Source: a virus
Taxonomy: Duplodnaviria > Heunggongvirae > Uroviricota > Caudoviricetes
Direction: 5' to 3' (one strand)
Length of the DNA stretch: 46,353 bases
IMG/VR virus record: IMGVR_UViG_2711768010_000018
The notes under the pieces were generated by a model. It was given only the letters and a program-made list of their open reading frames with translations. It had not been told where the DNA came from and ran no database searches. Below are positions 1-46,353 of this stretch, piece by piece (the stretch's first letter is position 1; every line of letters starts with the position of its first letter). The translations under genes and the position numbers were made by a program.

Positions 1-1236
1 CTACGATAACCGCGCATTCAACATGGCTACCTGTTCGTCGTTCATGTCATCAATCCACATACCGTAAATTTCATACACCATCTGCGCAGTTTCATGCCCC
101 ATCTGGCTGGCTATAAACGCCGGGTTCGCTCCTGCCGTCAACAGCCAGCAGGCAAAAGTATGCCGCGTATGGTACGGATTACGGCGGCGAATACCAGCAC
201 GTTTTACTGCTGCATTCCATCTCGCACCCAAACTGCTTACCGAGTAATAAGGTTTCTGTTTTCCGTTACACACTCTGGGCATGAAAACAAAATGCAGTTT
301 TTGCTTTTCGGTTCTGCCGTACTCCCGATGATAAAAAGTGATTTCGCTTTTGCGATGATGCCCGGTCAGTTTGTATTGCTCCTTCAGTGCTTCAAGAGCA
401 GGCTGCAGTAGTGTTACCGTCCGGATCCCCGCATTTGTTTTTGGGGGACCGAACATATCCAGTATCGTCAGGTTTCTTCTGACATTCACAACTCCCTTCT
501 CGAAATCCACATCCTCCCACGCCAGAGCAGCCAGTTCCCCGTGACGAAGCCCGGAGTATACGGCAAATTTCCACAAGTTCTGGCTCTGTCCTTTTTCACT
601 TTCCATTAATGCATTGAATTCTGTTTTAGATAACGGGTCAGGCTTTATTCTGTTTCTCTGTAATTTCTTTACTCCTTCAAATGGTTTGGTTGATATAAAT
701 CCCGACTGATACGCAAAACGTAACAACGAACAGAGCAGGGCGATATAGTTATCAACTGTGCGCACGGTTCTTCCTTTTTTGTTGGATCTTGGATTATCCA
801 GGTAAAGCGTTTCTCCATGCAGCAGTTCATTCCGGTAGTTTAAGATATCGCTATAACGAATATGCGATATCGGAGTACTCTCACAAATTATTATCCTGAG
901 TGTTTTTAATTGTGATTTCGTTTTCTTCATTGTGTTTGTTGTTAACTCTGTTTCTTTAATTTTTGTCCAGATATCACAAAGCTCCCCGAACGTTTTTATG
1001 ACCCTCGTTGTCACCATTTTTGCCCCAGTGCTGGACTGGGGAAAACGTCTTAAATACTCAAACTCACCGGAATTGATTTCATGAACTATCAACGCTCTTA
1101 AATTCCCGGCTTTTTTAATGTTACTGTTAGTAACCTCCCAGCCTTTCAATGTTTCCCGACATCGTTTTCCTCGAAACATGAACCAGATGCGAATGTATTT
1201 ACCTCGAATCTCGACACCTGTTGGTAATTTAGACAT
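1..1236 (-). CDS. intR: Tyrosine-type site-specific integrase, 411 aa, complete; attL would lie left of the window
   Basis: Minus-strand ORF with ATG at 1234-1236 and stop at 1-3; C-terminal region has the phage-integrase-type R...H..R...Y catalytic region (HTRHTFACWLL...). Length and sequence match my recollection of Rac IntR; synteny with xis/recET. Confidence 0.92.
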   Translation of the reverse strand: MSKLPTGVEIRGKYIRIWFMFRGKRCRETLKGWEVTNSNIKKAGNLRALIVHEINSGEFEYLRRFPQSSTGAKMVTTRVIKTFGELCDIWTKIKETELTTNTMKKTKSQLKTLRIIICESTPISHIRYSDILNYRNELLHGETLYLDNPRSNKKGRTVRTVDNYIALLCSLLRFAYQSGFISTKPFEGVKKLQRNRIKPDPLSKTEFNALMESEKGQSQNLWKFAVYSGLRHGELAALAWEDVDFEKGVVNVRRNLTILDMFGPPKTNAGIRTVTLLQPALEALKEQYKLTGHHRKSEITFYHREYGRTEKQKLHFVFMPRVCNGKQKPYYSVSSLGARWNAAVKRAGIRRRNPYHTRHTFACWLLTAGANPAFIASQMGHETAQMVYEIYGMWIDDMNDEQVAMLNARLS

Positions 1237-1237
1237 A

Positions 1238-1453
1238 TCATGAGTCTTTGATAAACTGATTTATCTTTGGATAGTTATACCAGATAATCCCTCGCTTACT
1301 GTCTGGCTTCCCTAAAGGAGATACTCGTTTGAAGTGGAAGCCTTCCACCCAACAGTTCTGGCGGTATGCTTCAATTTGTCTGGCCCCCAGACCAGTGCGA
1401 AGCATCAGGCCGTATTCAACCATCCACTCTTCATTAAAGATTACTTGTGCCAT
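1238..1453 (-). CDS. xisR: Excisionase-like protein (about 71 aa from internal ATG MAQVIF...)
   Basis: Small ORF immediately upstream of int on the same strand; ORF track gives a 79 aa version, the internal Met at 1453 matches the recalled YdaQ/XisR N-terminus. Confidence 0.75.
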
Positions 1454-1552
1454 CGCATCACCTCTGGCAGGCGCCAATGTTAGACTTAAATTGACGCCCG
1501 ATGTTGATTATTAATAATCAGCTATGAAGTTTTAATTTGAATACAATGCAAT

Positions 1553-1741
1553 TCACGAGGACTGAAGTTTCTCGCAATTAAAATTTATCAGTTTTACTTT
1601 CTGCTCTCTGGAAACGCCTGCTTCTTTTTTACCTGAGAGCATTTTTTCGCATTCTGATTTCGTTAGTTTAGATTTTGAATATCTTGTCCAGTTAGTAGGA
1701 GTGCCACCTTCCTTTTCAATAGTGGCGGTAATTTTATACAT
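1553..1741 (-). CDS. ydaC: Small hypothetical protein (YdaC-like), start MYKITATIEKEGG...
   Basis: ORF 1553..1813 in track; the ATG at 1741-1739 overlaps the end of the ralR-like frame (ATGTATAA overlap), typical of a coupled phage early operon. Confidence 0.55.
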   Translation of the reverse strand: MYKITATIEKEGGTPTNWTRYSKSKLTKSECEKMLSGKKEAGVSREQKVKLINFNCEKLQSS

Positions 1742-1928
1742 GAACACCTCCATTATTATTTCCAGTGGTTCGTTTATTTCATCGTTCGAGTGCTTCTTTT
1801 TCACTTCCACCATAACCGGTTCGGGATTCGCATCCGTTACACTTCGCTCGGTAATATCCTGAAATGGCTTTCACCGTTACTGATGGACAACCACAAAATG
1901 GACATGGTTTAACATTGTCATATCTCAT
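1734..1928 (-). pseudogene. ralR: Restriction-alleviation protein Lar/RalR homologue interrupted by an in-frame TGA at 1779-1781 (49 codons, stop, then 14 more sense codons to TAA at 1734-1736)
   Basis: Hand translation of the minus strand from ATG 1928: MRYDNVKPCPFCGCPSVTVKAISGYYRAKCNGCESRTGYGGSEKEALER-stop-NKRTTGNNNGGVHV-stop. Cys-rich zinc-ribbon-like N-terminus and position between ydaC and recT match RalR. Confidence 0.55.
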
Positions 1929-1983
1929 AATTTTTCTCATAAAAATATTTCAAGTTGGCGGTGCATTACACCGCCAGGCTGAA

Positions 1984-2793
1984 TTATTCCTCTGAATTAT
2001 CGATTACACTGTATTCCCCGGTTAATACAGAGGAATCTGCAGGATCGATTGTCAGTGGTTCCTTTTCATCCATTGATACTGCACGCTGGATCTCAATTGA
2101 TACGGGCAGATATTTGAACAGGCGACGAATAGCCGTTTTCTTTGCCATTTCTTCCCAGTGAGTTACCCACGGCCCGTTATTACCAGCTTTACTCTGGCTG
2201 CGCACCAGCTCAATCTGTTTGCGCGTCATAACTTCAAACTGAGTACCTCCGTCTTTCAGTCTTGCGACAGCATAGACGTGGGTAACAGGGGCATCTTCGT
2301 TTTCTCCTGGGCGGTGTATTAACTTTTCATCAAGGCCAAATTCGAAATTAAACTCGTCACCTTCACGGACAACACGGGCTGACAGGCTGGCGATTTGACC
2401 TGAACGGCGAGCCAGATCAATCATGCCGCGATAGCCAATGATTAGCTGAACGTTTTTTTTACCGCTCTTTTCGTTTTTATTACCAAAAGGCAGTAAATAT
2501 GCATGACCGAGGGCGCTACCGGGCTCAAGTCCGAGCTGTGAACACTGTACGATTGCACTGACAAAACTCATAGTGTCACAGTTTCCTAACGCCGGAACTT
2601 TACGAATTTCTGTGGTGGCGATACGGATCATACGTTCAGCCGTCATATGGCGTGGAAGAGCTGCTGCCAGTTGCTCTTTCATTGATGGCTGGTTAATAAA
2701 ACTAATCACGTCGTTATTTTTAATTGCTGCTGGTGCACGGTTTCCCTGAGTTTTTTGCAGATCGGCTTTTGCGATTGGTGGTTGCTTAGTCAT
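1984..2793 (-). CDS. recT: RecT single-strand annealing recombinase, 269 aa
   Basis: ORF track 1984..2850; internal Met [13 protein letters not shown]... gives 269 aa matching recalled Rac RecT; overlaps the recE 3' end as in the recET operon. Confidence 0.92.
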
Positions 2794-5386
2794 TTGCATA
2801 TTCCTTAGCCCAGCGGGGCAGTGATAACGTCTTAATAGCTGGCCATTCATCGGTATTGAGGCAGTCAGCCAGGGTTCGCAGATTGCGGTGATATTCCAGC
2901 TGACCTGCCAGTTTTGCTTCTTCGCCCATCATGAAAATTTCAACCGGATAACGTCCGCATTCAATAGTTGTGCTGGCAACCAGAAAAACGAAAGTTGGCT
3001 GCACTCCAAACTGTGCTTCATAACCGTCACTGTAGAATGCATCCTGAACGTGATAGCGGTAGTCGTAATAAGCGGTTTTGAATCGTTGAATATCCGCCGT
3101 AGTTTTCACGTCCATGATCCAGTGAAATTCAGGGATAATTTTGTCCGGACGGCACCGACACAAAATTGCTGTTTCAGGATCTTCCCAGTAAATTGATGAT
3201 TCAGCGTGTCCGGCGCTTTCAACAAGCCATTGCCCCAGCGGCAAAGCCATAACGCTCTGATACATGAGTTCAATTTTCCGGCCTTCTTCGGCAGTGATAA
3301 CCGTTTTTCCTGTGCTTGCGCATTCCCTCAGAAACGCTTTCTCTTCTTCTTTTCCGGAGTTTGTCCGGCGGTTAAATTCAGGTGCTACGATAAAGCGGTT
3401 ACTGAATTCTTCCGGCTCAAGTACCCGGCAGTGGAAAGCGGTTCCTAAATCGAGCGTTTTTGTCTTTGTGGTGTCCACGGGGGCATTTTTACGCCACAAA
3501 TACAGTGCCGGAGTATCAGCAATGTCATCGAGCTGAGACTTACTGACACCGGGACCCGCGTGGTAATTCTCATTCGAAATTCCGTAATAAATACCTGGCT
3601 CTATGTCTTCTACGATTACGGGATCTGCGACTTCGCCAGTTTCATCACTGCAATCGCGATGCGGATCGCTGCCAGCATTCTCATTGTGCGGATGTTCAGC
3701 GCCTTCCATTTCCTCCGGATCATTTTCCTTAGCTTCAACCTGACTCTCTTCATCGAATGTTTCCTGGTATGTTGCGTCGCCCATCACCGCACCACAGTCA
3801 GGGCAGTTATCCCCGCCAGTCTGGCCGCAGGCATTGCAGGCTATTTCCGGTTCCTGTTGCACTACTGGCTCAGGTTGATTCATATCCGGGCTGGTTTTTT
3901 CCGTTTCTGGCTGGTTCTGGTACACACAATCGCGAGTCTGGATCCCCTTTACCCATTTCGGATCGTTCGGGTCGCTAATTCCGTCAACAAATTCACCACG
4001 TGATGCAGCAAGCAATTTATCGGCATCGACAGGATTTTTTGATGGAATGTTTTTCCGGGCTTCATGGAGTTCTGCCCGCAGTTCCTGATATTTCGCATCA
4101 ACAGAATTTACCTGTGACTGAGCATCCAGCGGCTGCGTGTCCTGATGATGTTCAGTTGCGTCCGGTTCCATTGTTTCAGCCTCTCCCTGTTCAACTGCCG
4201 TTGTTCCAGATGGTTGCGGTTTTTCTTCATCATCCTGTTTTCCTTCTTCTGTTACTCGCTGCGGCATCGGGGCAGAGGAGCGACCGCAGGCAATATCCAC
4301 GATTTCCGGATCAGGGTTGGCATGATCGGTTTCAGTCAGTACTTTGTTCAGATATTCAGTGACGTGCGCGGGGATGACCTCGATCCCAATTGGTGCTTCT
4401 TTTACGGACGCAACCACGATGGCGCGGGAATAATCCAGCCCGCCAGGCATGGTGATGAATTTGTCGCGGAAAACAGAAAAGGGCGGTTTATTTTCAGCGA
4501 TAATTTCCTCAATGCGTTTAGCGTGTGCCGGATGAAGGTTATAGATGTCCAGATCCATTGAACGGGCCAGTACGCCAGTGGCTACGTCCCGCGCCAGTGA
4601 CGTCAGATCGTGTACGAAACCTTCGCCGCGATCGGTGAGGTTTCCGCCGCCAGCATTAGCACCGGAAGCCGTGCGAGTGATGTGTGAAACACGATTACCC
4701 TTCATCCACTCTTTTGTCAGCAGTCCTCGATCGGTGTAGTCAGCGTTCAGGTATGCTTCGAAAAAAGCAGTTATCAGTCCCAGGTTTGAATTACCAGGAT
4801 TAGGGAAAACTTTGTCAGTGTCACGAACCAGTTTGTGGAGTTCGCGAATTTCCAGCGGGTCGAGCAGGCTGGTTTTGTGGGAAACAGCCAGGGCAGTAAC
4901 AGCCGGTAGTTCTTCAGCCCGAGCAATGTGTAATGCCTGGAGTCCGTCGCGTGAAACGTGCGTTACCGGTTTTTCGCTGCCGTGTTGAGCAAGCCAACGA
5001 ATGGGCAGTTCCTGGCCAGAAATTGGGAGTAGCATATTCTCCTCAATCTCAGGCATGTCTTCGCCGTTGACGTTGGTATTGCCTTGATAGTGAGCGTTGT
5101 CTGGTGCTGCTCCCGGTTTTAGTTCCCATGTCATGGAGTCTTTGCTGAGTTGATAGCGTTCACTCCAGGTAAAATCGATCTCACCTTCAGCGGGCAGGTC
5201 ATTAACGACAGGAAAATTCGTGGCAACAGCTTTAAAATAGCTGCTCAGTTTTTTACCTGACTTAACGATCAGGTAGTCCAGAGTGGCACAGGTCGATTCA
5301 AAATCGTTGCTTGCCCACAGGACGACGTCAGGTTCACCGGATGATTTTTTCGCTTTCCGTAACAGGAAGAGTGGTTTTGTGCTCAT
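2786..5386 (-). CDS. recE: RecE exonuclease VIII, 866 aa
   Basis: 866 aa ORF with ATG at 5384-5386, immediately upstream of recT on the same strand; length and C-terminal nuclease region consistent with RecE. Confidence 0.92.
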
Positions 5387-5487
5387 TGTTTTTTAACCTC
5401 AACTCAGATTAAAATTCGTTTTGTTCAGTGAATGATCTTGCCGGATACACACTGTTCATAGCCTGCGCCATACGCAGGCTATTTCTT

Positions 5488-5763
5488 TCAGATTTCACCT
5501 TTTAATTTCATTGCAATTAGAGTTGCCAGAAATTCGGCTTTTTTTTCTGCGGGCAGATTCTTTCCGATATGCACCAGGCACATTTTTTTGACACCTTCAT
5601 CAAGTGTTTTTACGTTGCCTGATGGACCATCGATATCAACCACAGTGAATGGGGTTTCTTTATTTTCTGTTTTAATTACGTAGCCAATGCGCTTTCCTTC
5701 CAGATTCACCTCGTGAACAATGTCATCGGTAGTTACAACAGTGGCTTCATAATTGGTAATCAT
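5488..5763 (-). CDS. racC: RacC-like small protein (91 aa from MITNYEATVV...)
   Basis: ORF track 5488..5811; internal ATG at 5763 is preceded on the minus strand by AAGGAG (RBS). Confidence 0.8.
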   Translation of the reverse strand: MITNYEATVVTTDDIVHEVNLEGKRIGYVIKTENKETPFTVVDIDGPSGNVKTLDEGVKKMCLVHIGKNLPAEKKAEFLATLIAMKLKGEI

Positions 5764-5837
5764 GTTTTTCTCCTTAATTAAGGTTGAGCGAATACCTGCC
5801 ATTTCTGGCATAAATTCAGTTTCGAATAGTCAATTAA

Positions 5838-6008
5838 TTAAAGTTCATGTGCCATCTGGTCTTTTTCGGCACAAGCTTCACTGCAATATTTTCTCGGTTC
5901 GTCTTTTGATAAAATCCCGTGCATGAAGTGAAGCATTCTTTCAATAGCTTTGCTTTCTTCAACGTCTTTTTTGCAAAGGTGGTAAGCACATTTTATTTTC
6001 TTAGTCAT
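5838..6008 (-). CDS. ydaE: Small Cys-containing protein YdaE-like, 56 aa ([56 protein letters not shown])
   Basis: Hand-translated minus-strand ORF below the 60 aa track cut-off; its ATG overlaps the kilR stop by 1 nt (TGATG). Confidence 0.65.
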   Translation of the reverse strand: MTKKIKCAYHLCKKDVEESKAIERMLHFMHGILSKDEPRKYCSEACAEKDQMAHEL

Positions 6009-6229
6009 CACCATGACTCCGCCTTTACAGGTAAACCATCACGACCGAGGAAGACTTTAATCATGCGGTCAGTAATGCATGTTTTTGTGGTCAGGTTACG
6101 AATATATAGTTTTCGCTTTTTAATATTGTTTGCCGAGGCAATATATGTCCGGCCTTCATGAAGAACATAATCGCCAGGAGTCACACACTGACGTGGTATT
6201 TCATCAGTTCCGAAGTGATGTGCAATCAT
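6008..6229 (-). CDS. kilR: KilR, FtsZ-directed cell-division inhibitor (73 aa from [14 protein letters not shown]...)
   Basis: ORF track 6008..6241; sequence matches recalled KilR; position upstream of ydaE/racC/recE in the leftward operon. Confidence 0.85.
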
Positions 6230-6670: not shown

Positions 6671-7159
6671 ATGTTGGATGTATTTACTCCATTGTTGAAA
6701 CTTTTTGCTAACGAGCCACTCGAAATACTTATGTATACGATTATCATTTTTGGTCTCACTCTCTGGCTGATACCGAAAGAGTTTACTGTCGCATTCAATG
6801 CTTATACTGAAATACCTTGGCTCTTTCAGATTATCGTTTTTGCCTTTTCTTTCGTGGTCGCCATTTCCTTCTCAAGATTGCGAGCACATATTCAAAAGCA
6901 TTATTCATTACTACCAGAGCAACGAGTATTGCTTCGTTTATCTGAGAAAGAAATCGCTGTATTTAAAGATTTCCTTAAAACAGGAAATCTTATTATCACT
7001 TCTCCTTGCCGTAACCCGGTTATGAAAAAATTAGAACGGAAGGGCATCATTCAACATCAGAGTGATAGCGCAAACTGTTCTTATTATCTCGTCACCGAAA
7101 AATACTCCCATTTTATGAAGTTATTCTGGAACAGCAGGAGTAGACGTTTTAATCGTTAG
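6671..7159 (+). CDS. sieB: Superinfection exclusion protein SieB, 162 aa membrane protein
   Basis: ORF track 6548..7159; internal ATG at 6671 gives MLDVFTPLLKLF... with hydrophobic N-terminal segments, matching recalled SieB. Confidence 0.82.
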   Translation: MLDVFTPLLKLFANEPLEILMYTIIIFGLTLWLIPKEFTVAFNAYTEIPWLFQIIVFAFSFVVAISFSRLRAHIQKHYSLLPEQRVLLRLSEKEIAVFKDFLKTGNLIITSPCRNPVMKKLERKGIIQHQSDSANCSYYLVTEKYSHFMKLFWNSRSRRFNR

Positions 7160-7311
7160 CTTACTGTGTGCTTCTCCAACCATCGGCGCGCACCAGTTTC
7201 GGTTTTAAATGTTTTGCTTTTGGTATACGTCATGGCAGTGAACGTTCCATCCTGGTTGGGGAACACGCCGCACACCAGGGATTCGTTGTTGCCGAGGTCG
7301 ATTTTTTGCAT
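7156..7311 (-). CDS. ydaF: Small hypothetical protein, 51 aa (MQKIDLGNNESLVCGVFPNQDGTFTAMTYTKSKTFKTETGARRWLEKHTVS), likely YdaF
   Basis: Hand-translated minus-strand ORF below the track cut-off, located between sieB and ydaG; length equals the 51 aa I recall for YdaF. Confidence 0.45.
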   Translation of the reverse strand: MQKIDLGNNESLVCGVFPNQDGTFTAMTYTKSKTFKTETGARRWLEKHTVS

Positions 7312-7321
7312 TTTGCGAATC

Positions 7322-7456
7322 TCACATCTTGTTGCTGTGTATAGCGACTTCTGCCTGCCAGAGATCCCAGTCGTTGCTGCGTAAAGCCTGCACAGCCTGG
7401 TTGTAAGTGATACCGCAACAATCCATCAAATACTGAACTACTTCGTAATGCACCAT
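7322..7456 (-). CDS. ydaG: Small protein YdaG-like, 44 aa (MVHYEVVQYLMDCCGITYNQAVQALRSNDWDLWQAEVAIHSNKM)
   Basis: ORF track 7322..7504; the internal ATG at 7456 is preceded on the minus strand by AAGGGGAGAG (strong RBS). Confidence 0.65.
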   Translation of the reverse strand: MVHYEVVQYLMDCCGITYNQAVQALRSNDWDLWQAEVAIHSNKM

Positions 7457-7647
7457 CTTATCTCTCCCCTTAACGCCGGGTGGCGGAACTGAAACCTGCT
7501 GCACTGCAAAATCTGAACCCTGCCGTCATGTTCATACGCCTCGGGCTGGCTACTTAACCCCTGACCACTGCCTGGTAACTCGAAGTATTGCCCTGCGTTC
7601 TGTGGGGCGGGGTGGGTTGGTAGGTATATAATGTACTTTGTGTTCAT
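7438..7647 (-). CDS. Hypothetical 69 aa protein downstream of racR
   Basis: ORF track only; ATG at 7645-7647 but no convincing RBS. Could be non-coding. Confidence 0.3.
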   Translation of the reverse strand: MNTKYIIYLPTHPAPQNAGQYFELPGSGQGLSSQPEAYEHDGRVQILQCSRFQFRHPALRGEIRWCITK

Positions 7648-7746
7648 TGATGTAAAGTACTATAAGTACATTTTGTGTGTAAAAAAATGAGATGGGATAA
7701 AGTGAAGCACAAACCCGGAGGGGGACGCTACCGGATTTATGCTGGT

Positions 7747-8166
7747 TTAAGAGGCTTTTTGTTTTTTCTTTCGTGCTAGCTCTTCGTAAATTGCATTGTA
7801 CTTCTGTTTTTTCTCCTCAAGAGTTTTTAAAAGTTCATCTGTCTCACTGTCAGGGAGCTCGTCCAGAAGGTCAATGATGATTTTTTGTCTTGGATTTAAC
7901 TCCTGATAGAAACGTACCTGTCCACTTTCTTCTGTATCCTCTCCCAAAAGATAGGTTGGTGTTGTTCCAATGAGTGTTGCTAATTCCCTTAATTTCTCTC
8001 GGCGAGGAATTGTTTCGCCATTAAACCATTTGCTAACCGCTTTTGGTGTTAATTTCATTCGACGGGCAATTTCTGCCTGCCTTCCATGTTGTTCATAACC
8101 AGCGTTTTCACAGGCTAGCGCAAGCCTACTGGCGAACTCTTTACGCGCTTTATCTTCATGAACCAT
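7747..8166 (-). CDS. racR: Prophage repressor (cI-like, HTH XRE family), 139 aa from ATG (track uses an upstream GTG at 8184)
   Basis: ORF track 7747..8184; helix-turn-helix-like segment (QAEIARRMKLTPKAVSKWFNGE); divergent from the cro-like ydaS. Confidence 0.8.
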   Translation of the reverse strand: MVHEDKARKEFASRLALACENAGYEQHGRQAEIARRMKLTPKAVSKWFNGETIPRREKLRELATLIGTTPTYLLGEDTEESGQVRFYQELNPRQKIIIDLLDELPDSETDELLKTLEEKKQKYNAIYEELARKKKQKAS

Positions 8167-8919: not shown

Positions 8920-8931
8920 GCAAAAGTTTCC

Positions 8932-9789: not shown

Positions 9790-9795
9790 CTGACC

Positions 9796-10542: not shown

Positions 10543-10564
10543 TTTTTACCGGGAGGAAATTTTT

Positions 10565-11326: not shown

Positions 11327-11341
11327 TTGCCGGAGGCGCTT

Positions 11342-31475: not shown

Positions 31476-31478
31476 CAC

Positions 31479-38233: not shown

Positions 38234-38564
38234 TACGGAAGAATTTCACTGGTTACCAGAGGATGGAATGAAAACAGAAAATAAACCATCGATAAAAACT
38301 GTAAGATTTGGTGATGGTTATGAGCAACGAAGTCCAAATGGACTTAATCATTCTCTGCGCGTTTTCACCTGTGATTTCAAAGTTGAGGCGAATGAACGTG
38401 ATTCATTTGAAAAATTTTTAGCCCGGCATGAAGGCTATAAATCTTTTTTTTGGCGCCCGCCGGGTATTAACAGAAAAATCAGAGTGGTGTGTCGAACGTG
38501 GTCAGCGACAGAACATATCACCTATACCGATTTTTCGTGTCAGTTTGACGAAGTGGTGATCTGA
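38226..38564 (+). CDS. Minor tail protein (lambda M-like), 112 aa
   Basis: Synteny and size. Confidence 0.8.
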
Positions 38565-39262
38565 TGCAGGACATACAACAGGAAACGCTGAATGAATGCA
38601 TTCGTGCGGAGCAGTCGGCCAGCGTGGTGCTCTGGGAAATCGACCTGACCGAGGTAGGCGGGGATCGCTACTTTTTCTGCAATGAGCAGAACGAGAAAGG
38701 AGAGTCTGTCACCTGGCAGAGTCGGCAGTATCAGGCCTATCCCATTCAGGGGAGTGGATTTGAGATGAACGGCAAAGGTGCCAGTGCAAGGCCAACGCTG
38801 AAAGTCTCTAATCTGCACGGCATGGTCACCGGGATGGCGGAAGACCTGCAGAGTCTGGTCGGCGGAACGGTGGTCAGGCGTAAGGTTTACGCCCGTTTTC
38901 TGGATGCGGTGAACTTCGTCAACGGAAACAGTGACGCCGATCCGGAGCAGGAGGTGATCAGCCGCTGGCGTATTGAGCAGTGCAGCGAACTGAGCGCGGT
39001 CAGTGCCTCCTTTGTACTGTCCACGCCGACGGAAACGGACGGCGCTGTTTTTCCGGGGCGCATCATGCTTGCTAATACCTGCACCTGGACCTATCGCGGT
39101 GATGAGTGCGGTTATCACGGTCCGGCTGTCGCGGATGAATATGACCAGCCAACGTCCGATATCACGAAGGATAAATGCAGCAAATGCCTGAGCGGTTGTA
39201 AGTTCCGCAATAACGTCGGCAACTTTGGCGGCTTCCTTTCCATTAACAAACTTTCGCAGTAA
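38564..39262 (+). CDS. Minor tail protein (lambda L-like), 232 aa
   Basis: Synteny; conserved Cys cluster near the C-terminus. Confidence 0.85.
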   Translation: MQDIQQETLNECIRAEQSASVVLWEIDLTEVGGDRYFFCNEQNEKGESVTWQSRQYQAYPIQGSGFEMNGKGASARPTLKVSNLHGMVTGMAEDLQSLVGGTVVRRKVYARFLDAVNFVNGNSDADPEQEVISRWRIEQCSELSAVSASFVLSTPTETDGAVFPGRIMLANTCTWTYRGDECGYHGPAVADEYDQPTSDITKDKCSKCLSGCKFRNNVGNFGGFLSINKLSQ

Positions 39263-39267
39263 ATCCC

Positions 39268-40011
39268 ATGACACAGACAGAATCAGCGATTCTGGCGCAC
39301 GCCCGGCGATGTGCGCCAGCGGAGTCGTGCGGCTTCGTGGTGAGAACACCGGAGGGGGAAAGATATTTTCCCTGCGTGAATATTTCCGGTGAGCCGGAGG
39401 AGTATTTCCGGATGGCTCCGGAGGACTGGCTGCAGGCCAAAATGCAGGGTGAGATTGTGGCGCTGGTCCACAGTCACCCCGGTGGTCTGCCCTGGCTGAG
39501 TGAGGCCGACCGGCGGCTGCAGGTGCAGAGTGATTTGCCGTGGTGGCTGGTCTGCCGGGGAGTGATTCATAAGTTCCGCTGTGTGCCGCATCTCACCGGG
39601 CGGCGCTTTGAGCACGGGGCGACGGACTGTTACACGCTGTTCCGGGACGCTTACCATCTGGCGGGAATTGAGATGCCAGATTTTCATCGTGAGGACGACT
39701 GGTGGCGTAATGGTCAGAATCTCTATCTGGATAATCTGGAGGCTACAGGGCTGTATCAGGTGCCGTTGTCAACGGCGCAGCCGGGCGATGTGCTGCTGTG
39801 CTGTTTTGGTTCATCGGTGCCGAATCATGCCGCCATTTACTGTGGTGACGGCGAGCTGCTGCACCATATTCCTGAACAACTGAGTAAACGAGAGAGGTAC
39901 ACCGACAAATGGCAGCGACGCACACACTCCCTCTGGCGTCACCGGGCATGGCACGCATCTGCCTTTACGGGGATTTGCAGCGATTTGGCCGCCGCATCGA
40001 CCTTCGTGTGA
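39268..40011 (+). CDS. Tail assembly protein (lambda K-like; JAB/MPN plus NlpC/P60-like), 247 aa
   Basis: Near-identity to lambda K as recalled (MTQTESAILAHARRCAPAESCGFVV...); HSHPGG JAMM-like motif. Confidence 0.88.
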   Translation: MTQTESAILAHARRCAPAESCGFVVRTPEGERYFPCVNISGEPEEYFRMAPEDWLQAKMQGEIVALVHSHPGGLPWLSEADRRLQVQSDLPWWLVCRGVIHKFRCVPHLTGRRFEHGATDCYTLFRDAYHLAGIEMPDFHREDDWWRNGQNLYLDNLEATGLYQVPLSTAQPGDVLLCCFGSSVPNHAAIYCGDGELLHHIPEQLSKRERYTDKWQRRTHSLWRHRAWHASAFTGICSDLAAASTFV

Positions 40012-40556
40012 AAACGGGGGCCGAAGCCATCCGGGCACTGGCCACACAGCTCCCGGCATTTCGTCAGAAACTGAGCGACGGCTGGTATCAGGTGCGCATT
40101 GCCGGGCGTGATGCAGGCGAAAATGAATTATCTGCCCGTCTTAATGAACCGCTGGCAAATGGTGCCGTGATCCACATCGTTCCGCGTCTGGCGGGTGCCA
40201 AAAGTGGCGGTGTGTTTCAGGCGGTGCTGGGTGCGGCGCTGATTGCGGTGGCATGGTGGAACCCTGTGGGCTGGCTGGGGGCCGCGGCTGTATCGGGTAT
40301 GTATGCAGCAGGGGCCAGTATGATCCTGGGTGGTGTGGCGCAGATGCTGGCACCGAAAGCCAGGACGCCCACGGCAGCCAGTACAGATAACGGCAAACAG
40401 AACACGTATTTCTCGTCACTGGATAACATGGTTGCTCAGGGCAATGTTCTGCCTGTTCTGTACGGTGAAATGCGTGTGGGGTCACGGGTGGTTTCTCAGG
40501 AGATCAGCACGGCAGACGAAGGGGACGGTGGTCAGGTTGTGGTGATTGGTCGCTGA
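39909..40556 (+). CDS. Tail assembly protein (lambda I-like), 215 aa; overlaps the K 3' end
   Basis: Near-identity to lambda I as recalled (MAATHTLPLASPGMARICLYGDLQRFGRRIDLRV...). Confidence 0.85.
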   Translation: MAATHTLPLASPGMARICLYGDLQRFGRRIDLRVKTGAEAIRALATQLPAFRQKLSDGWYQVRIAGRDAGENELSARLNEPLANGAVIHIVPRLAGAKSGGVFQAVLGAALIAVAWWNPVGWLGAAAVSGMYAAGASMILGGVAQMLAPKARTPTAASTDNGKQNTYFSSLDNMVAQGNVLPVLYGEMRVGSRVVSQEISTADEGDGGQVVVIGR

Positions 40557-40616
40557 TGCAAAATGTTTTATGAGAAACCGCCTGCGGGCGGTTTTGTCGT
40601 TTATGGAGCGTGAGGA

Positions 40617-43600
40617 ATGGGTAAAGGCAGCAGTAAGGGGCATACCNTGATCGATGCCATCAGTGAAGGGCCGGTTGAAGGTCCGGTGGATGGATTAAAA
40701 AGCGTGCTGCTGAACAGTACGCCGGTGCTGGACAATGAGGGGAATACCAACATCTCCGGCGTCACGGTGGTGTTCCGGGCAGGTGAGCAGGAGCAGTCAC
40801 CGCCGGAGGGGTTTGAATCCTCCGGCTCCGAGACGGTGCTGGGTACGGAAGTGAAATATGACACGCCGATCACCCGGACCATCACGTCGGCAAACATCGA
40901 CCGTCTGCGCTTTACCTTCGGTGTACAGGCACTGGTGGAAACCACCTCAAAGGGAGACAGGAATCCGTCGGAAGTCCGCCTGCTGGTTCAGATACAGCGT
41001 AACGGTGGCTGGGTGACGGAAAAAGACATCACCATTAAGGGCAAAACCACCTCGCAGTATCTGGTCTCGGTGGTGGTGGATAACCTGCCTCCGCGCCCGT
41101 TCAGTATCCGGATGCGCAGGATGACACCGGACAGCACCACAGACCAGCTGCAGAACAAAACGCTCTGGTCGTCATACACCGAAATCATCGATGTGAAACA
41201 GTGCTACCCGAACACTGCACTGGTCGGCGTACAGGTGGACTCGGAGCAGTTCGGCAGCCAGCAGGTGAGTCGTAATTATCATCTTCGCGGGCGCATTCTG
41301 CAGGTGCCGTCGAACTATAACCCGCAGACGCGACAATACAGCGGTATCTGGGACGGAACGTTAAAACCAGCATACAGCAACAACATGGCCTGGTGTCTGT
41401 GGGATATGCTGACCCACCCGCGCTACGGCATGGGGAAACGTCTTGGTGCGGCGGATGTGGACAAATGGGCGCTGTATGTCATCGGCCAGTACTGCGACCA
41501 GTCAGTGCCGGACGGCTTTGGCGGCACGGAGCCGCGCATCACCTGTAATGCGTACCTGACCACACAGCGCAAGGCGTGGGATGTGCTCAGTGATTTCTGC
41601 TCGGCGATGCGCTGTATGCCGGTATGGAACGGGCAGACGCTGACGTTCGTGCAGGACCGACCGTCGGATAAGGTGTGGACCTATAACCGCAGTAATGTGG
41701 TGATGCCGGATGATGGCGCGCCGTTCCGCTACAGCTTCAGCGCCCTGAAAGACCGCCATAATGCCGTTGAGGTGAACTGGATTGACCCGGATAACGGCTG
41801 GGAGACGGCGACAGAGCTTGTGGAGGACACGCAGGCCATTGCCCGTTACGGTCGTAACGTCACGAAGATGGATGCTTTTGGCTGTACCAGCCGGGGGCAG
41901 GCACACCGCGCCGGGCTGTGGCTGATTAAAACAGAACTGCTGGAAACGCAGACCGTGGACTTCAGCGTGGGCGCAGAAGGGCTTCGCCATGTGCCGGGCG
42001 ATGTCATTGAAATCTGTGATGATGACTATGCGGGTATCAGCATCGGCGGGCGCGTGCTGGCGGTAAACAGCCAGACCCGGACGCTGACGCTCGACCGTGA
42101 AATCACGCTGCCATCCTCCGGTACCATGCTGATAAGCCTGGTTGACGGGCAGGGGAGTCCGGTCAGCGTGGAGGTTCAGTCCGTCACCGACGGCGTGAAG
42201 GTGAAAGTGAGCCGTGTTCCTGACGGCGTTGCTGAATACAGCGTGTGGGGGCTGAAGCTGCCGACGTTGCGCCAGCGCCTGTTCCGCTGTGTGAGTATCC
42301 GTGAGAACGATGACGGCACGTATGCCATCACTGCCGTGCAGCATGTACCGGAAAAAGAAGCCATCGTGGATAACGGGGCGCACTTTGACGGCGACCAGAG
42401 CGGCACGGTGAATGGTGTCACGCCGCCAGCGGTGCAGCACCTGACTGCCGAAGTCACCGCAGACAGCGGGGAATATCAGGTGCTGGCGCGCTGGGACACG
42501 CCGAAGGTGGTGAAGGGGGTGAGCTTTATGCTTCGCCTGACCGTGGCAGCGGATGACGGCAGTGAGCGGCTGGTCAGCACGGCCCGGACGACGGAAACCA
42601 CATACCGCTTCACGCAACTGGCGCTGGGACGGTACACGCTGACAGTCCGGGCGGTAAATGCCTGGGGACAGCAGGGCGATCCGGCGTCGGTATCGTTCAG
42701 GATTGCCGCACCGGTAGCACCGTCGCGGATTGAGCTGACGCCGGGCTATTTTCAGATAACTGCCACGCCGCATCTTGCGGTTTATGATCCGACGGTACAG
42801 TTTGAGTTCTGGTTCTCGGAAACGCGGATTACCGATATCAGGCAGGTTGAAACCACAGCCCGCTACCTTGGCGCGGGGCTGTACTGGATAGCCGCCAGTA
42901 TCAATATCAAACCGGGCCATGATTATTACTTTTATATCCGCAGTGTGAACACCGTTGGCAAATCGGCATTCGTGGAGGCCGTCGGTCGGGCGAGCGATGA
43001 TGCGGAAGGTTACCTGGATTTTTTCAAAGGCAAGATAACCGAATCCCATCTCGGTAAAGAGCTGCTGGAAAAAGTTGATCTGACGGAGGATAACGCCAGC
43101 AGACTGGATGAGTTTTCGAAAGAGTGGAAGGACGCTAACGATAAATGGAATGCGATGTGGGGCGTCAAAATTGAGCAGACCAAAGACGGCAAACATTATG
43201 TCGCGGGTATTGACCCGGCAAACGGGAATGAAACGCCGATGTTTGTGGCGCAGGGCAACCAGATATTCATGAACGACGTGTTCCTGAAGCGCCTGACAGC
43301 CCCCGCCATTACCAGCGGTGGCAGTCCTCCGGTATTTTCCCTGACATCAGACGGAAAGCTGACCGCTAAAAATGCGGATATCAGTGGTAGTGTGAATGCG
43401 AACTCAGGAACGCTCAACAATGTCACGATTAACCAGAACTGTACGATTAAGGGCATGCTGGAGGCGACCCAGGTCAGAGGGGATTTCGTTAAAGCTGTAT
43501 CAAAAGCCTTCCCGAAAAAAGTCGGTACGTGGGGTAACACGGAAACACCAGACGGTACGGTTACAGTCACCATCAGCGATGATCATAACTTTGACCGCCA

Positions 43601-43910
43601 GATTATTATTCCGCCCATTATTTTTAACGGTATAGCGTATGACGATCCGGGGAGCGGAAATAACCCAGGAGGCACGCGATACACGGGTTATGGTTTTGAA
43701 GTTCGCAAAAACGGCGTATTAATCGCATCCAGAGAAACTAAAGGTGCCATTCCCGGTAGTTACAGTGCAGTTATTGATATGCCTAGTGGTGGTGGTAGCG
43801 TCACTCTGGAGTTTAAGATTTTCCAGAAAGGCAATCAGGGGGCAGGCAATATCACCGACTGTACGGTGATTGTGACCAAAAAAGCGGCTTCCGGCATCAG
43901 TATTCGTTGA
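40617..43910 (+). CDS. Host specificity / tail tip protein (lambda J-like), 1097 aa; one ambiguous base at 40647
   Basis: Long ORF following I; lambda J-like N-terminus; fibronectin-III-like central region. Confidence 0.9.
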
Positions 43911-43932
43911 AATATTTATAACCCCAATAAAT

Positions 43933-43958
43933 GGCGTCAGGAATGACGCCTTTTTTAT
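43933..43958 (+). terminator. Rho-independent terminator after J
   Basis: Stem GGCGTCA, loop GGAA, stem TGACGCC, then TTTTTT. Confidence 0.6.
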
Positions 43959-43980
43959 TGCAGAAAAGCGAGAGGTAATT

Positions 43981-44367
43981 ATGCGTAAAGTTTGTGCCGC
44001 CATTTTGTCCGCAGCCATTTGTCTGGCCGTATCCGGTGCGCCTGCATGGGCGTCTGAACATCAGTCCACGCTGAGCGCGGGGTATCTTCATGCCCGGACC
44101 AACGTTCCCGGCAGTGATGATCTGAACGGGATTAACGTGAAATACCGTTATGAGTTTACGGATACGCTGGGGCTGGTGACGTCATTCAGCTATGCAGGAG
44201 ACAAGAATCGCCAGCTGACCCGTTACAGCGATACCCGCTGGCATGAAGATTCCGTTCGTAACCGCTGGTTCAGCGTAATGGCGGGGCCGTCTGTGCGCGT
44301 GAATGAATGGTTCAGCGCGTATGCGATGGCGGGTGTGGCTTACAGCCGTGTGTCGACTTTCTCCGGG
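43981..44367 (+). CDS. lomR: Lom-like outer membrane beta-barrel protein (Ail/Lom family), 5' 129 codons only; 3' end lost in the N-run
   Basis: Signal peptide plus near-identity to lambda Lom as recalled (AAILSAAICLAVSGAPAWASEHQSTLSAGYLHA...); the ORF runs into the N-run at 44368. Confidence 0.85.
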
Positions 44368-44388
44368 NNNNNNNNNNNNNNNNNNNNN

Positions 44389-46353
44389 TGCTGCAGGCTC
44401 AGCGCGTGCAGCCAGCACGTCAGCCGGACAGGCCGCGACTTCGGCTCAGGAGGCGTCTTCCAGCGCAGGAACGGCATCAACAAAGGCCACTGAAGCATCA
44501 AAAAGTGCTGCCGCTGCAGAGTCCTCAAAAAGCGCGGCGGCCACCAGTGCCGGTGCGGCGAAAACGTCAGAAACGAATGCTGCAGCGTCACAAAAATCAG
44601 CAGCCACTTCTGCATCCACTGCGACAACGAAAGCGTCAGAAGCCGCCACTTCAGCCAGAGATGCGGCGGCCTCCAAAGAGGCGGCAAAATCATCAGAAAC
44701 GAACGCCTCCACAAGCGCCAGCAGTGCAGCCTCCTCGGCAACGGCGGCAGGAAATTCCGTGAAGGCGGCAAAAACGTCCGAGACGAATGCTAAGTCTTCT
44801 GAAACGGCAGCGGAACAGAGCGCCTCAGCTGCGGCAGACTCTGAGACAGCAGCTGCATCATCGGCCCGTGAGGCGTCCATTAAGGCAGAGGAGGCAGCAG
44901 TCAGTGCCACCGCCGCCGGAAAATCGGCAGAAAGCGCCGCATCATCCGCTTCAACAGCCACAACGAAGGCTGGCGAAGCCACTGAACAGGCCAGCGCAGC
45001 AGCGAGGTCTGCTTCCGCAGCGAAGACATCCGAAACGAACGCGAAAGCGTCGGAAACCAGCGCAGAATCCTCAAAAACGGCTGCCGCATCGTCCGCCAGT
45101 TCGGCGGCGTCATCGGCATCATCTGCGTCTGCTTCAAAAGATGAGGCGACCAGACAGGCGTCAGCAGCGAGGGGCAGCGCCACGACGGCATCCACGAAGG
45201 CGACAGAGGCTGCTGGCAGTGCGGCAGCGGCAGCACAGAGCAAAAGTACGGCGGAATCCGCGGCAACGCGCGCCGAGACAGCAGCAAAACGGGCAGAGGA
45301 TATTGCATCCGCCGTGGCGCTTGAGGATGCGAGCACGACGAAAAAGGGGATAGTACAGCTCAGCAGTGCGACCAACAGCACTTCCGAGTCACAGGCGGCA
45401 ACGCCAAAAGCCGTTAAGGCCGCGTATGACCTGGCTAACGGGAAATACACCGCACAGGATGCAACGACAGCACAGAAAGGGATAGTTCAGCTCAGCAGTG
45501 CGACTAACAGCACTTCCGAGTCACAGGCGGCAACGCCAAAAGCCGTTAAGGCCGCGTATGACCTGGCTAACGGGAAATACACCGCACAGGACGCTACGAC
45601 AGCACAAAAAGGAATTGTCCAGCTCAGTAGTGCAACCAACAGCACATCTGAANNNNNNNNNNNNNNNNNNNNNNNNNNNNNNNNNNNNNNNNNNNNNNNN
45701 NNNNNNNNNNNNNNNNNNNNNNNNNNNNNNNNNNNNNNNNNNNNNNNNNNNNNNNNNNNNNNNNNNNNNNNNNNNNNNNNNNNNNNNNNNNNNNNNNNNN
45801 NNNNNNNNNNNNNNNNNNNNNNNNNNNNNNNNNNNNNNNNNNNNNNNNNNNNNNNNNNNNNNNNNNNNNNNNNNNNNNNNNNNNNNNNNNNNNNNNNNNN
45901 NNNNNNNNNNNNNNNNNNNNNNNNNNNNNNNNNNNNNNNNNNNNNNCAAATTTTGCCTGGGTTAATACATCTGGTGATACTTACGATATTTACGTTGCAA
46001 TCGGAAATTATGCGACTGGTGTAAATATTCAATGGGATTATACCAGTAATGCCAGCGTGACGATTCATACGTCACCAGCATATTCTGCTAATAAGCCGGA
46101 AGGGTTAACGGACGGTACAGTTTATTCACTCTATACGCCATCAGAGCAGTTTTATCCGCCTGGCGCACCAATCCCGTGGCCATCAGATACCGTTCCGTCT
46201 GGCTATGCCCTGATGCAGGGGCAGGCTTTTGACAAATCTGCATACCCGAAACTTGCAGCGGCTTATCCGTCAGGCGTGATCCCTGATATGCGTGGCTGGA
46301 CGATTAAGGGCAAACCTGCCAGTGGTCGGGCCGTATTGTCTCAGGAACAGGAC
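44389..46353 (+). CDS. stfR: Side tail fibre protein (Stf family), partial at both ends: 5' end lost in the 21-N run, internal 294-N run (45653-45946), 3' end beyond the window
   Basis: Ala/Ser/Thr-rich repetitive region matching lambda Stf as recalled ([13 protein letters not shown]...KTSETNA...); after the second N-run the hand-translated frame ([15 protein letters not shown]...[64 protein letters not shown]) is open to the window end. Confidence 0.85.
45343..45652 (+). repeat. Tandem 132-bp (44-codon) repeats within stf, at least 2.3 copies, continuing into the N-run
   Basis: Units beginning near 45343, 45475 and 45607 encode [44 protein letters not shown] with a few synonymous differences. 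Confidence 0.85.

What the first reader, a model, noticed from the sequence alone, without database searches (positions are those of the whole stretch)
1..46353. Near-complete Rac-type prophage, retaining modules that I recall as absent or decayed in E. coli K-12 Rac
The left arm (intR to ydaW) is syntenic with K-12 Rac. This window additionally carries an intact ydaW, nin-type genes, a Q-like gene, a phage-21-type holin/SAR-endolysin/Rz cassette, an intact ParB-like gene, and a complete packaging, head and tail module with lom and stf. If the N-runs are only placeholders, this element may be inducible, unlike the K-12 copy.
Basis: partly seen in the sequence, partly recalled or inferred. Interest (0 to 1): 0.4.

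Follow-up and report, generated by a model that had tools for sequence, protein, structure and literature searches.

The report
Full-length Rac-type lambdoid prophage
The window is an undeleted version of the Rac prophage of E. coli K-12, with a complete set of phage genes; such full-sized Rac-like prophages are common in E. coli genomes and have been described, so it is ordinary.

Summary
The window is a Rac-type lambdoid prophage running from the stop codon of intR to the middle of the side tail fibre gene. It is 99.9% identical over 40.6 kb to a prophage next to ttcA in E. coli NCTC10444. K-12 Rac aligns to it as the same element with three internal deletions (window 11015-20186, 22618-34174, 35935-44182), a swapped immunity region (7623-8490) and an IS5 in lom.

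Corrections:
- The four N-runs are not length-true. They are probably scaffold gaps in sequence repeated among lambdoid prophages.
- In this window the endolysin, the start of J, the end of lom and the start of stf therefore cannot be verified.
- attL, attR and tfa lie outside the window.
- The repressor differs from RacR and has no autocleavage domain, so SOS induction is not assured.

Full-sized and active Rac-like prophages are published (KingRac, Sp10/CP-933R, LT-II phages), and near-identical copies occur in many complete genomes. Novelty: already known. Interest is low.

One side lead: a conserved ParB-like plus TET-associated glycosyltransferase gene pair sits just upstream of the terminase genes. 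K-12 ynaK is a relic of its ParB-like gene.

The parts
1..1453 (-). Integration module: intR (1-1236) and xisR (1238-1453)
   Evidence: 100% protein identity to the NCTC10444 copies. 98.8% and 100% identity to K-12 IntR and XisR.
1535..1928 (-). rcbA and the ralR toxin, with the RalA antitoxin sRNA on the + strand (1557-1735)
   Evidence: tblastn to K-12 proteins, 98.4-98.6%. Rfam RF02694, 225 bits.
1984..6229 (-). Early-left operon: recT, recE, racC, ydaE, kilR
   Evidence: 98.5-100% identity to the K-12 proteins, all full length.
6671..7456 (.). sieB (+, 6671-7159), ydaF and ydaG (-)
   Evidence: 97.7-100% identity to the K-12 proteins.
7623..8500 (.). Immunity cassette that differs from K-12 racR/ydaS. 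It holds a cI-like HTH repressor (7747-8166, -, 139 aa) and a cro-like HTH protein (8246-8500, +, 84 aa). The motif ATGTACTnnnnGTTC recurs at 7631, 8191 and 8215 and may be the operator.
   Evidence: No blastn or tblastn match to K-12 racR or ydaS. Pfam finds HTH_3 and HTH_17 only, with no Peptidase_S24. Repeats; with only three copies, the operator role is inferred.
8497..11758 (+). cII-like ydaT, replication genes ydaU and ydaV, full-length ydaW (DUF1627, 10565-11326) and a DUF977 Ren-like gene (11342-11758)
   Evidence: K-12 ydaW matches only residues 1-151 and then continues out of frame into the Rz region.
11957..14895 (.). Low-GC cargo region: an unknown 320-aa protein (11957-12919), an unknown 333-aa protein (12935-13936) and a DUF1971 gene (14557-14895, -)
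   Evidence: GC is 36-41%. Only weak HEPN_RES_NTD1 and GNAT hits. No PADLOC hit and no PDB sequence hit. The 320/333 pair travels together in two prophage backgrounds.
15709..17137 (+). nin-like genes DUF1367 (NinB/Orf-like) and YbcO, then the Q-like antiterminator (DUF1133, 16595-17137)
17885..18071 (+). STnc100-family RNA element between the Q-like gene and the lysis genes, probably the late-leader region
   Evidence: Rfam RF02076, 86.6 bits against a gathering score of 47. The late-leader role is inferred from position.
18182..19156 (+). Two small ORFs with TolA C-terminal domains (18182-18610 and 18782-19156), cargo upstream of the lysis genes
   Evidence: Pfam PF06519, E = 2.4e-23 and 1.1e-14.
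19408..20631 (+). Lysis cassette: phage-21-type holin (19408-19623), SAR-type endolysin (19623-20170, interrupted by the 51-N run at 19831-19881), Rz (20167-20631) and embedded Rz1 (20387-20572)
   Evidence: Pfam PF04971, PF00959 (on the relative's copy) and PF03245. The N-terminal segment [18 protein letters not shown] and residues E35, D44 and T50 are visible in the sequence.
20769..22226 (+). trkG potassium transporter, cargo between the lysis and packaging genes
   Evidence: 99.6% identity to K-12 TrkG. Present upstream of the ParB-like gene in 55 of 72 related viral contigs.
22364..24264 (+). ParB-like protein (22364-23152, 262 aa), TET-associated glycosyltransferase family protein (23145-24077, 310 aa) and a 69-aa ORF (24055-24264)
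   Evidence: Pfam PF02195 and PF20691, the latter at E = 3.7e-34. phrog_620 and phrog_842. The adjacency is conserved. K-12 ynaK equals residues 1-86 of the ParB-like protein.
24268..31256 (+). Packaging and head genes: TerS, TerL (Terminase_6N/6C), portal (DUF4055), Mu-F-like head morphogenesis protein, scaffold (DUF6651) and a P22-family major capsid protein
   Evidence: Pfam. Full-length PHROG matches. 100% identity to the NCTC10444 proteins.
31299..38233 (+). Head-tail connectors, tail terminator, tail tube, the G/GT tail assembly chaperone and the tape measure protein (35000-38233). The chaperone has an A_AAA_AAG -1 slippery site at 34514-34520.
   Evidence: K-12 ydaY and ynaA are fragments of the chaperone and the tape measure.
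38226..43910 (+). Lambda-type tail tip genes M, L, K, I and J. A single N at 40647 stands where the relative has 47 bases of J.
   Evidence: Pfam. About 94% nucleotide identity to phage lambda 13406-18471. The start of J is compared.
43981..46353 (+). lom (43981-44367, first 129 codons only), a 21-N gap, then the side tail fibre gene stf (44389 to the window end). stf has a 294-N gap at 45653-45946; its N-terminus is hidden and its C-terminus lies outside the window.

Best explanation
The window is one integrated lambdoid temperate prophage of the Rac lineage. It is the undeleted form of the element whose remnant is the cryptic Rac prophage of E. coli K-12.

Gene order follows the lambdoid plan:
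- int and xis;
- recET, kilR and sieB, read leftwards;
- a cI-like repressor and a cro-like protein, divergently transcribed;
- cII-like YdaT;
- replication genes ydaU and ydaV;
- nin-like genes and a Q-like antiterminator;
- a late leader;
- pinholin, SAR endolysin and spanins;
- terminase, a P22-family head and a lambda-type non-contractile tail with J, Lom and side fibres.

Cargo genes sit at module boundaries: ralR/RalA, trkG, TolA-domain ORFs, two unknown genes, DUF1971, and a ParB-like protein with a glycosyltransferase.

K-12 Rac arose from such an element by three internal deletions with junction overlaps of no more than 2 bp, plus an IS5 insertion. It also carries a different immunity cassette.

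The four N-runs are most likely scaffold gaps in a draft assembly, placed where sequence is repeated among co-resident lambdoid prophages.

Shown: identity, synteny, intact reading frames, and domain content. Inferred: that the element can excise, replicate, package by a headful mechanism (from the T4-type terminase domains) and form particles.
For: - 99.9% identity over 40.6 kb to a prophage next to ttcA in a complete genome, with every protein from intR to tail protein I 98.4-100% identical and full length.
- K-12 Rac aligns in colinear blocks, and its odd ORFs (ydaW, ynaK, ydaY, ynaA) map as fragments or chimeras across the three deletion junctions.
- Structural and regulatory proteins cover their Pfam or PHROG profiles end to end.
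- A -1 frameshift site is conserved in the tail chaperone.
- A repeated motif flanks the repressor gene on both sides within the swapped segment.
- 98 complete E. coli genomes hold at least 80% of the left half in one place, and 675 hold at least 80% of the right half. At least 198 viral contigs carry the ParB-like/glycosyltransferase part of the element.
- The gap flanks abut in the relative, and the gaps lie in the endolysin, the start of J, lom-stf and the stf repeats. The J region occurs a median of twice per genome.
- Active relatives are published: KingRac (46,834 bp, at ttcA) gives particles and replaces K-12 Rac (PMC6731689, PMC12251178). Rac-like Sp10 and CP-933R also sit in ttcA (PMC4632033). 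Full-sized Rac-like prophages carry LT-II (PMC5917428).
Against: - Function is not shown for this copy.
- Read literally, the 51-N run would break the endolysin frame, and the 21-N run would fuse a truncated lom to a truncated stf.
- attL, attR and tfa are outside the window.
- Identity to the best relative drops to 91-96% after the gap in J, so a mis-join to another prophage's J-lom-stf region cannot be excluded.
- The repressor has no S24 domain and the window has no LexA box, so classical SOS induction is doubtful.
- KingRac shares the integrase and replication genes, but its gene sizes differ elsewhere, so its activity does not transfer directly to this mosaic.
Confidence: 0.9

Rival explanations
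1. The element is a cryptic, defective prophage despite its complete-looking gene set. On this reading the N-runs mark real lesions: a 50-base insertion in the endolysin, and a deletion that joins lom to stf. Alternatively, regulatory defects prevent lytic growth.
For: Read literally, the N-runs break the endolysin frame and remove 717 bases of lom and stf. The repressor lacks an autocleavage domain and there is no LexA box. K-12 Rac shows that this lineage decays in place.
Against: The sequence on both sides of each run continues in register with intact genes of relatives. A single N standing for 47 bases, and runs placed only in multi-copy sequence, are typical of scaffolding. All other genes are intact and full length.
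Confidence: 0.2
2. The window is a scaffold chimera. The part after the gap at 40647, or after 44368, belongs to a different lambdoid prophage of the same genome and was joined by the assembler through shared repeats.
For: Identity to NCTC10444 falls from 99.9% to 96% right after the single-N gap in J. No complete genome matches 38600-44367 at 99% or better; the best is NCTC9082 at 98.3%. J and lom sequences occur several times per genome.
Against: Gene order across each gap is the one found in every complete relative. J, lom and stf are known mosaic hot spots, so lower identity is expected without any mis-join.
Confidence: 0.12

Closest known systems
Cryptic prophage Rac of E. coli K-12 (NC_000913.3, 1411899-1434958)
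   Same: Same integrase and excisionase. Also shared: ralR/RalA, recET, racC, kilR, sieB, ydaT, ydaU, ydaV and trkG, at 97.7-100% protein identity and in colinear order.
   Different: K-12 lacks window 11015-20186, 22618-34174 and 35935-44182. It has an IS5 in lom and carries racR/ydaS where this element has a different repressor/cro pair. The K-12 right end (pinR, ynaE) is beyond the window.
KingRac, an active Rac-like prophage of a mouse commensal E. coli (PMC6731689, PMC12251178)
   Same: It sits at ttcA, is about 47 kb, and has integrase, excisionase, ydaT, ydaU and ydaV-sized genes of the same lengths. It shows that full-sized Rac-like prophages can be induced, form particles and lysogenise K-12.
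   Different: Gene sizes in its recombination, immunity and late regions differ, and PHASTEST matched it best to a lambda-type phage. Its sequence could not be aligned here.
Prophage records vB_EcoS-666R9, -673R7 and -613R10 (ON470614, ON470616, ON470590), Salmonella phage SPF_0923 (ON032529) and Rac-SA53 (KU052037)
   Same: The three vB_EcoS records each cover 72% of the left half at 97.7% identity and 70-74% of the right half at 98.8-99.0%. SPF_0923 covers 96% of the right half at 97.9%.
   Different: The vB_EcoS records are prophage predictions from clinical isolates (bioRxiv 10.1101/2022.06.29.498070), not shown particles. Rac-SA53 shares only 36% of the left half, at 92% identity.
Phage lambda and phage 21 modules
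   Same: Tail tip genes L, K, I and J are about 94% identical in nucleotides to lambda. The holin belongs to the phage 21 holin S family, and the endolysin has a SAR-type N-terminus.
   Different: The head and packaging genes are not lambda-like: they comprise a P22-family coat protein, a Mu-F-like protein and a T4-type terminase. A phage 21 record was not available for direct alignment.

Membership tests
Rac prophage lineage (ttcA-integrating lambdoid prophage of E. coli) | IntR/XisR integration module | tested here: met
   98.8% and 100% protein identity to K-12 IntR and XisR.
Rac prophage lineage (ttcA-integrating lambdoid prophage of E. coli) | Integration in ttcA, with attL and attR derived from the 5' end of ttcA | tested here: inconclusive
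   The window starts at the intR stop codon, so it holds no att site. In the 99.9% identical NCTC10444 copy, intR abuts ttcA, and a 43-nt match to the K-12 att region lies at the other end.
Rac prophage lineage (ttcA-integrating lambdoid prophage of E. coli) | The recET-racC-kilR-sieB early region and the ydaT-ydaU-ydaV replication region | tested here: met
   All present, full length, at 98.5-100% identity to K-12.
Rac prophage lineage (ttcA-integrating lambdoid prophage of E. coli) | RacR/YdaS immunity specificity | tested here: not met
   No match to racR or ydaS. A different HTH repressor/cro pair occupies 7623-8490. Immunity swaps are usual within lambdoid lineages, so this makes the element heteroimmune but does not make it unrelated.
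Rac prophage lineage (ttcA-integrating lambdoid prophage of E. coli) | K-12 Rac pseudogene fragments map onto intact genes | tested here: met
   ydaW 1-151, ynaK 1-86, ydaY 4-119 and ynaA 1-312 align to the intact DUF1627, ParB-like, chaperone and tape measure genes.
Phage 21-type lysis cassette (pinholin, SAR endolysin, Rz/Rz1) | Holin of the phage 21 S family, 71 aa | tested here: met
   PF04971, E = 2.1e-35, profile positions 1-63 of 64.
Phage 21-type lysis cassette (pinholin, SAR endolysin, Rz/Rz1) | Endolysin with an N-terminal signal-anchor-release segment and an intact lysozyme domain | tested here: inconclusive
   A Gly/Ala-rich hydrophobic N-terminus and E35, D44 and T50 are present. 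The gene is interrupted by 51 N where the relative has one base. The relative's copy is an intact PF00959 protein.
Phage 21-type lysis cassette (pinholin, SAR endolysin, Rz/Rz1) | Rz with Rz1 embedded in another frame | tested here: met
   PF03245, E = 3.5e-53. The Rz1 ORF at 20387-20572 is 100% identical to K-12 RzoR.
Lambdoid Q antiterminators | Q-family protein encoded just upstream of the late leader and the lysis genes | tested here: met
   phrog_753 'anti-termination protein Q-like', E = 2e-79, full length. PF06530 at 26.1 bits against a cut-off of 26. Antitermination activity was not tested.
TET/JBP-associated DNA glycosylation systems | A glycosyltransferase of the TAGT family (PF20691) | tested here: met
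   E = 3.7e-34. The DDD motif is invariant in 40 homologues. The model has a GT-A fold.
TET/JBP-associated DNA glycosylation systems | A linked enzyme that makes the hydroxymethyl-pyrimidine acceptor (5mYOX/TET dioxygenase or a thymidylate-synthase-like hydroxymethylase) | tested here: not met
   No TET/JBP or thymidylate-synthase domain was found in any window ORF that was scanned. None is annotated in the NCTC10444 copy. The left-arm genes were identified by identity to K-12 genes and were not scanned against Pfam.

The most novel reading that the evidence does not exclude
The ParB-like gene (22364-23152) and the overlapping TAGT-family glycosyltransferase gene (23145-24077) form a two-gene module. 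It is kept immediately upstream of the small terminase gene in temperate phages with at least three unrelated terminase types. It could be a ParB-activated glycosyltransferase that modifies phage DNA, or a packaging component, without any linked dioxygenase or hydroxymethylase. That arrangement was not described in the papers read here. K-12 ynaK would then be the relic of such a system.
Probability: 0.2. Interest if true: 0.55.

Novelty: already known. Interest (0 to 1): 0.15.

Why it matters
It matters little as a discovery. Full-sized Rac-like prophages in ttcA are documented, one (KingRac) has been shown to be active, and near-identical copies of this one sit in annotated complete genomes.

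It is useful as a reference. It gives a base-level account of how K-12 Rac was reduced: three deletions, one IS5 insertion and an immunity swap. It also assigns the K-12 fragments ydaW, rzpR, ynaK, ydaY, ynaA and lomR to their intact parent genes.

The only part that might repay work is the conserved pair of a ParB-like gene and a glycosyltransferase gene at the head of the packaging operon.

Tried and rejected
- Source genome. An exact 52-base pattern from stf was scanned against genome contigs. It hit only a 407-base stretch of a Shigella flexneri tail fibre gene, so the source strain and its flanks stay unknown.
- SOS link. There is no CTGT-N8-ACAG box in the window.
- tRNA genes. None were found.
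- Defence systems. PADLOC gave nothing for the two unknown cargo proteins, SieB, the TolA-domain ORFs or the glycosyltransferase. The ParB-like protein matched only the N-terminal domain of ParB-fused methyltransferases.
- Solved structures by sequence. There were no hits for the glycosyltransferase, the 320-aa cargo protein, TerL or the coat protein, and only two chance-level hits (E 0.39 and 0.74) for the 333-aa cargo protein.
- Fold search with the glycosyltransferase model (mean pLDDT 70). It returned only generic GT-A enzymes with TM-scores of 0.3-0.4, so the acceptor cannot be inferred.
- Small ORFs in the gaps at 13937-15708 and 17138-18181. They have no PHROG match.
- KingRac. Its supplementary gene table shows it is a different mosaic, so it cannot stand as the same phage. 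The supplement of the first KingRac paper is not held.
- Jobling 2016 (PMC4957749) is not held.
- ParB-like gene as a frameshift-split pseudogene. I considered this because PGAP flags the copy in NCTC10444 as incomplete. I rejected it because the 262-aa ORF covers the whole phrog_620 profile and relatives annotate a 263-aa gene.

Full report
**What the window is**

The window is 46,353 bases at 47% G+C. It has four N-runs: 19831-19881 (51 N), 40647 (1 N), 44368-44388 (21 N) and 45653-45946 (294 N).

Megablast against complete E. coli genomes finds the left half (1-23000) at 99.9% identity and full coverage in several chromosomes. 98 genomes hold at least 80% of it in one place. 675 genomes hold at least 80% of the right half in one place.

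The best relative is strain NCTC10444, which holds the whole window contiguously at 2716512-2763809. There intR abuts ttcA, and the annotated genes run from intR through recET, the replication genes, the lysis genes, trkG, terminase, head and tail genes to stf and tfaR.

Local alignment to NCTC10444 gives 99.95% identity over window 1-19830, 99.9% over 19882-23859, 99.87% over 22859-40645, and 91-96% through J, lom and stf. All annotated proteins of that copy from IntR to tail protein I are found in the window at 98.4-100% identity over their full length.

**Relation to K-12 Rac**

Alignment to the K-12 region gives colinear blocks:

| Window | K-12 content | Identity |
|---|---|---|
| 1-7622 | intR to ydaG | 98.7% |
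| 8491-11014 | ydaT to N-terminal ydaW | 98.3% |
| 20187-22617 | Rz remnant, rzoR, trkG, ynaK | 99.3% |
| 34175-35934 | ydaY, ynaA | 99.9% |
| 44183-44367 | lomR fragment 1 | 97.3% |
| 44389-45430 | stfR | 91.7% |
| 46162-46353 | stfR | 98.4% |

K-12 therefore lacks window 11015-20186, 22618-34174 and 35935-44182. Each junction shows an overlap of at most two bases.

The odd K-12 ORFs resolve as fragments or chimeras:
- ydaW is residues 1-151 of the DUF1627 protein, followed by an out-of-frame read into Rz.
- ynaK is residues 1-86 of a 262-aa ParB-like protein.
- ydaY is the C-terminal part of the tail assembly chaperone.
- ynaA is residues 1-312 of the tape measure protein, joined out of frame to lom.

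racR and ydaS have no counterpart in the window. Window 7623-8490 holds a different cassette: a 139-aa HTH_3 repressor on the minus strand and an 84-aa HTH protein on the plus strand. The motif ATGTACTnnnnGTTC occurs once to the left of the repressor gene and twice between the two genes. The element is thus heteroimmune to K-12 Rac.

**Gene content**

- ydaW is full length (DUF1627, 1-155/155).
- Next to it is a DUF977 Ren-like gene.
- DUF1367 matches the NinB/Orf family, and YbcO is a nin-region nuclease family.
- DUF1133 matches Q-like antiterminator families and reaches the Phage_antitermQ threshold by 0.1 bit.
- Rfam places an STnc100-family element at 17885-18071, between the Q-like gene and the lysis genes. 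It also finds the RalA antitoxin RNA at 1557-1735.

The lysis cassette has four parts:
- a 71-aa holin of the phage 21 S family;
- a lysozyme whose N-terminus is a Gly/Ala-rich hydrophobic segment, followed by E35, D44 and T50;
- Rz;
- an embedded Rz1 identical to K-12 RzoR.

The late region encodes TerS, a TerL with T4-type ATPase and nuclease domains, a DUF4055 portal, a Mu-F-like protein, a DUF6651 scaffold, a P22-family coat protein, four connector proteins, a tail terminator and a tube protein. It continues with a chaperone, a 1077-aa tape measure, and M, L, K, I and J. All of these cover their profiles end to end.

The chaperone gene ends with an A_AAA_AAG heptamer at 34514-34520. The -1 frame is open from there to 34834, which is the usual G/GT arrangement.

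L, K, I and J are about 94% identical in nucleotides to phage lambda. G+C rises from about 46% to about 58% at 39 kb, which marks a mosaic boundary.

**The N-runs**

The runs are not length-true.
- In the endolysin, the flanks read GCAG[51 N]ATGC where the relative has GCAGAATGC. Fifty-one N therefore stand for one base, and a literal reading shifts the frame.
- At the start of J, one N stands where the relative has 47 bases (an in-frame difference of 15 codons) that encode a conserved N-terminal stretch.
- The 21-N run replaces 717 bases: the last 213 nt of lom, the spacer, and the first 440 nt of stf.
- The 294-N run lies in the repetitive part of stf.

All four lie in sequence shared by many lambdoid prophages. 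The J region occurs a median of twice per genome. The most likely reading is scaffold gaps in a draft assembly. A literal reading cannot be excluded from the window alone, and neither can a mis-join after 40647, where identity to every complete genome drops (best 98.3%).

**What is missing from the window**

attL, attR, the C-terminal part of stf, and tfa are not in the window.

In NCTC10444 the att-like repeat on the far side lies between uspF and sitA. There the prophage is about 52.5 kb and carries sitABCD inside its right end, where K-12 has pinR and ynaE.

**How it most likely works**

By its anatomy this is a standard lambdoid temperate phage. All of the following is inferred from gene content.
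- Integration and excision: IntR and XisR at ttcA.
- Maintenance of lysogeny: a repressor at divergent promoters.
- Lytic entry: Cro-like and cII-like (YdaT) regulators.
- Replication: YdaU and the DnaC-like YdaV.
- Late transcription: released by the Q-like protein.
- Lysis: pinholin, SAR endolysin and spanins.
- Packaging: headful, by a T4-type terminase, into a P22-family capsid.
- Adsorption: a lambda-type tail with J and side fibres.

The trigger for induction is the weakest step. The repressor has no S24 domain and there is no LexA box.

**Comparison with the literature**

- Full-sized Rac-like prophages carry the LT-II toxins (PMC5917428).
- KingRac is a 46,834-bp Rac-related prophage of a mouse commensal. 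It is weakly induced by mitomycin C, gives tailed particles, and replaces the defective Rac of K-12 at ttcA in the gut. It also appears to transduce flanking DNA (PMC6731689, PMC12251178, bioRxiv 10.64898/2026.05.27.728231). Its gene table shows the same-sized integrase, excisionase, ydaT, ydaU and ydaV genes but different sizes elsewhere, so it is a different mosaic.
- GenBank prophage records cover most of this element at 97.7-99.0% identity.

The kind is therefore known, and this sequence itself is already present in annotated genomes.

**Side observations**

The ParB-like gene overlaps a 310-aa protein of the TET-associated glycosyltransferase family by 8 nt (PF20691, E = 3.7e-34).
- In 72 of 72 related viral contigs with a full flank, the two genes stay together.
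- In homologues only 62-74% identical, a 259-284-aa gene overlaps upstream of the glycosyltransferase gene and terminase genes follow. This holds in phages with GpA-type, HK97-type and Terminase_2-type terminases. In two of the three contexts (L087/L088 and L089/L090) the upstream gene carries a weak or faint ParB_N hit. In the third (L086) it has no Pfam hit on record.
- The window encodes no dioxygenase or hydroxymethylase that could make the usual acceptor.
- Recent work shows phage ParB-like proteins activating neighbouring DNA-modifying dioxygenases (PMC13229309) and phage glycosyltransferases decorating DNA (bioRxiv 10.1101/2023.12.21.572611).
- The model of the glycosyltransferase is a GT-A fold without a specific solved relative.

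What this pair does is open. It is the only part of the window with some potential for novelty.

**Verdict**

Novelty is 'already known' and interest is low.

Noticed in passing
window 22364-24264: A ParB-like gene overlaps by 8 nt a glycosyltransferase gene of the TET-associated family, directly upstream of the small terminase gene. A similarly sized upstream gene overlaps the glycosyltransferase gene, and terminase genes follow, in distant phages with three different terminase types. That upstream gene shows a ParB_N hit in two of the three contexts. No dioxygenase or hydroxymethylase is linked. K-12 ynaK is the first 86 codons of the ParB-like gene.
   Followed up: partly
window 11957-13936: Two adjacent genes of unknown function (320 and 333 aa) lie in a low-GC stretch between the replication and nin-like genes. 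They have only weak HEPN/RES-N-terminal and GNAT hits, and no match to known defence systems or solved structures. The pair occurs together in two prophage backgrounds, whereas 62-74% identical homologues of the first gene stand alone.
   Followed up: partly
L001 3376-7227 (NCTC10444, outside the window): In the closest complete genome, the att-like repeat at the right end lies between uspF and sitA. The iron/manganese transporter operon sitABCD is therefore inside the prophage, where K-12 Rac has pinR and ynaE.
   Followed up: partly
window 18182-19156: Two small ORFs with TolA C-terminal domains sit between the Q-like gene and the holin gene. This is the position that toxin and other cargo genes occupy in other lambdoid phages. 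PGAP flags one of them as a tolA pseudogene in NCTC10444, but it is an intact 142-aa ORF.
   Followed up: no
window 17885-18071: A match to the Rfam family STnc100 (86.6 bits) lies in the non-coding stretch downstream of the Q-like gene. A promoter-like site at 17508-17537 and a terminator-like hairpin at 17565-17584 lie upstream of it.
   Followed up: no
window 14557-14895 (minus strand): A DUF1971 gene sits alone on the opposite strand in the low-GC cargo region, flanked by about 600-800 bases with no recognisable gene.
   Followed up: no
window 28037-29149: The Mu-F-like head morphogenesis protein matches only the first half of its PHROG profile (10-365 of 679). Related GenBank prophage records carry a feature annotated as an NAD+-asparagine ADP-ribosyltransferase within the matched head-gene region; which gene it names was not checked. 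If it is this gene, some family members may carry a C-terminal toxin domain that is absent here.
   Followed up: no
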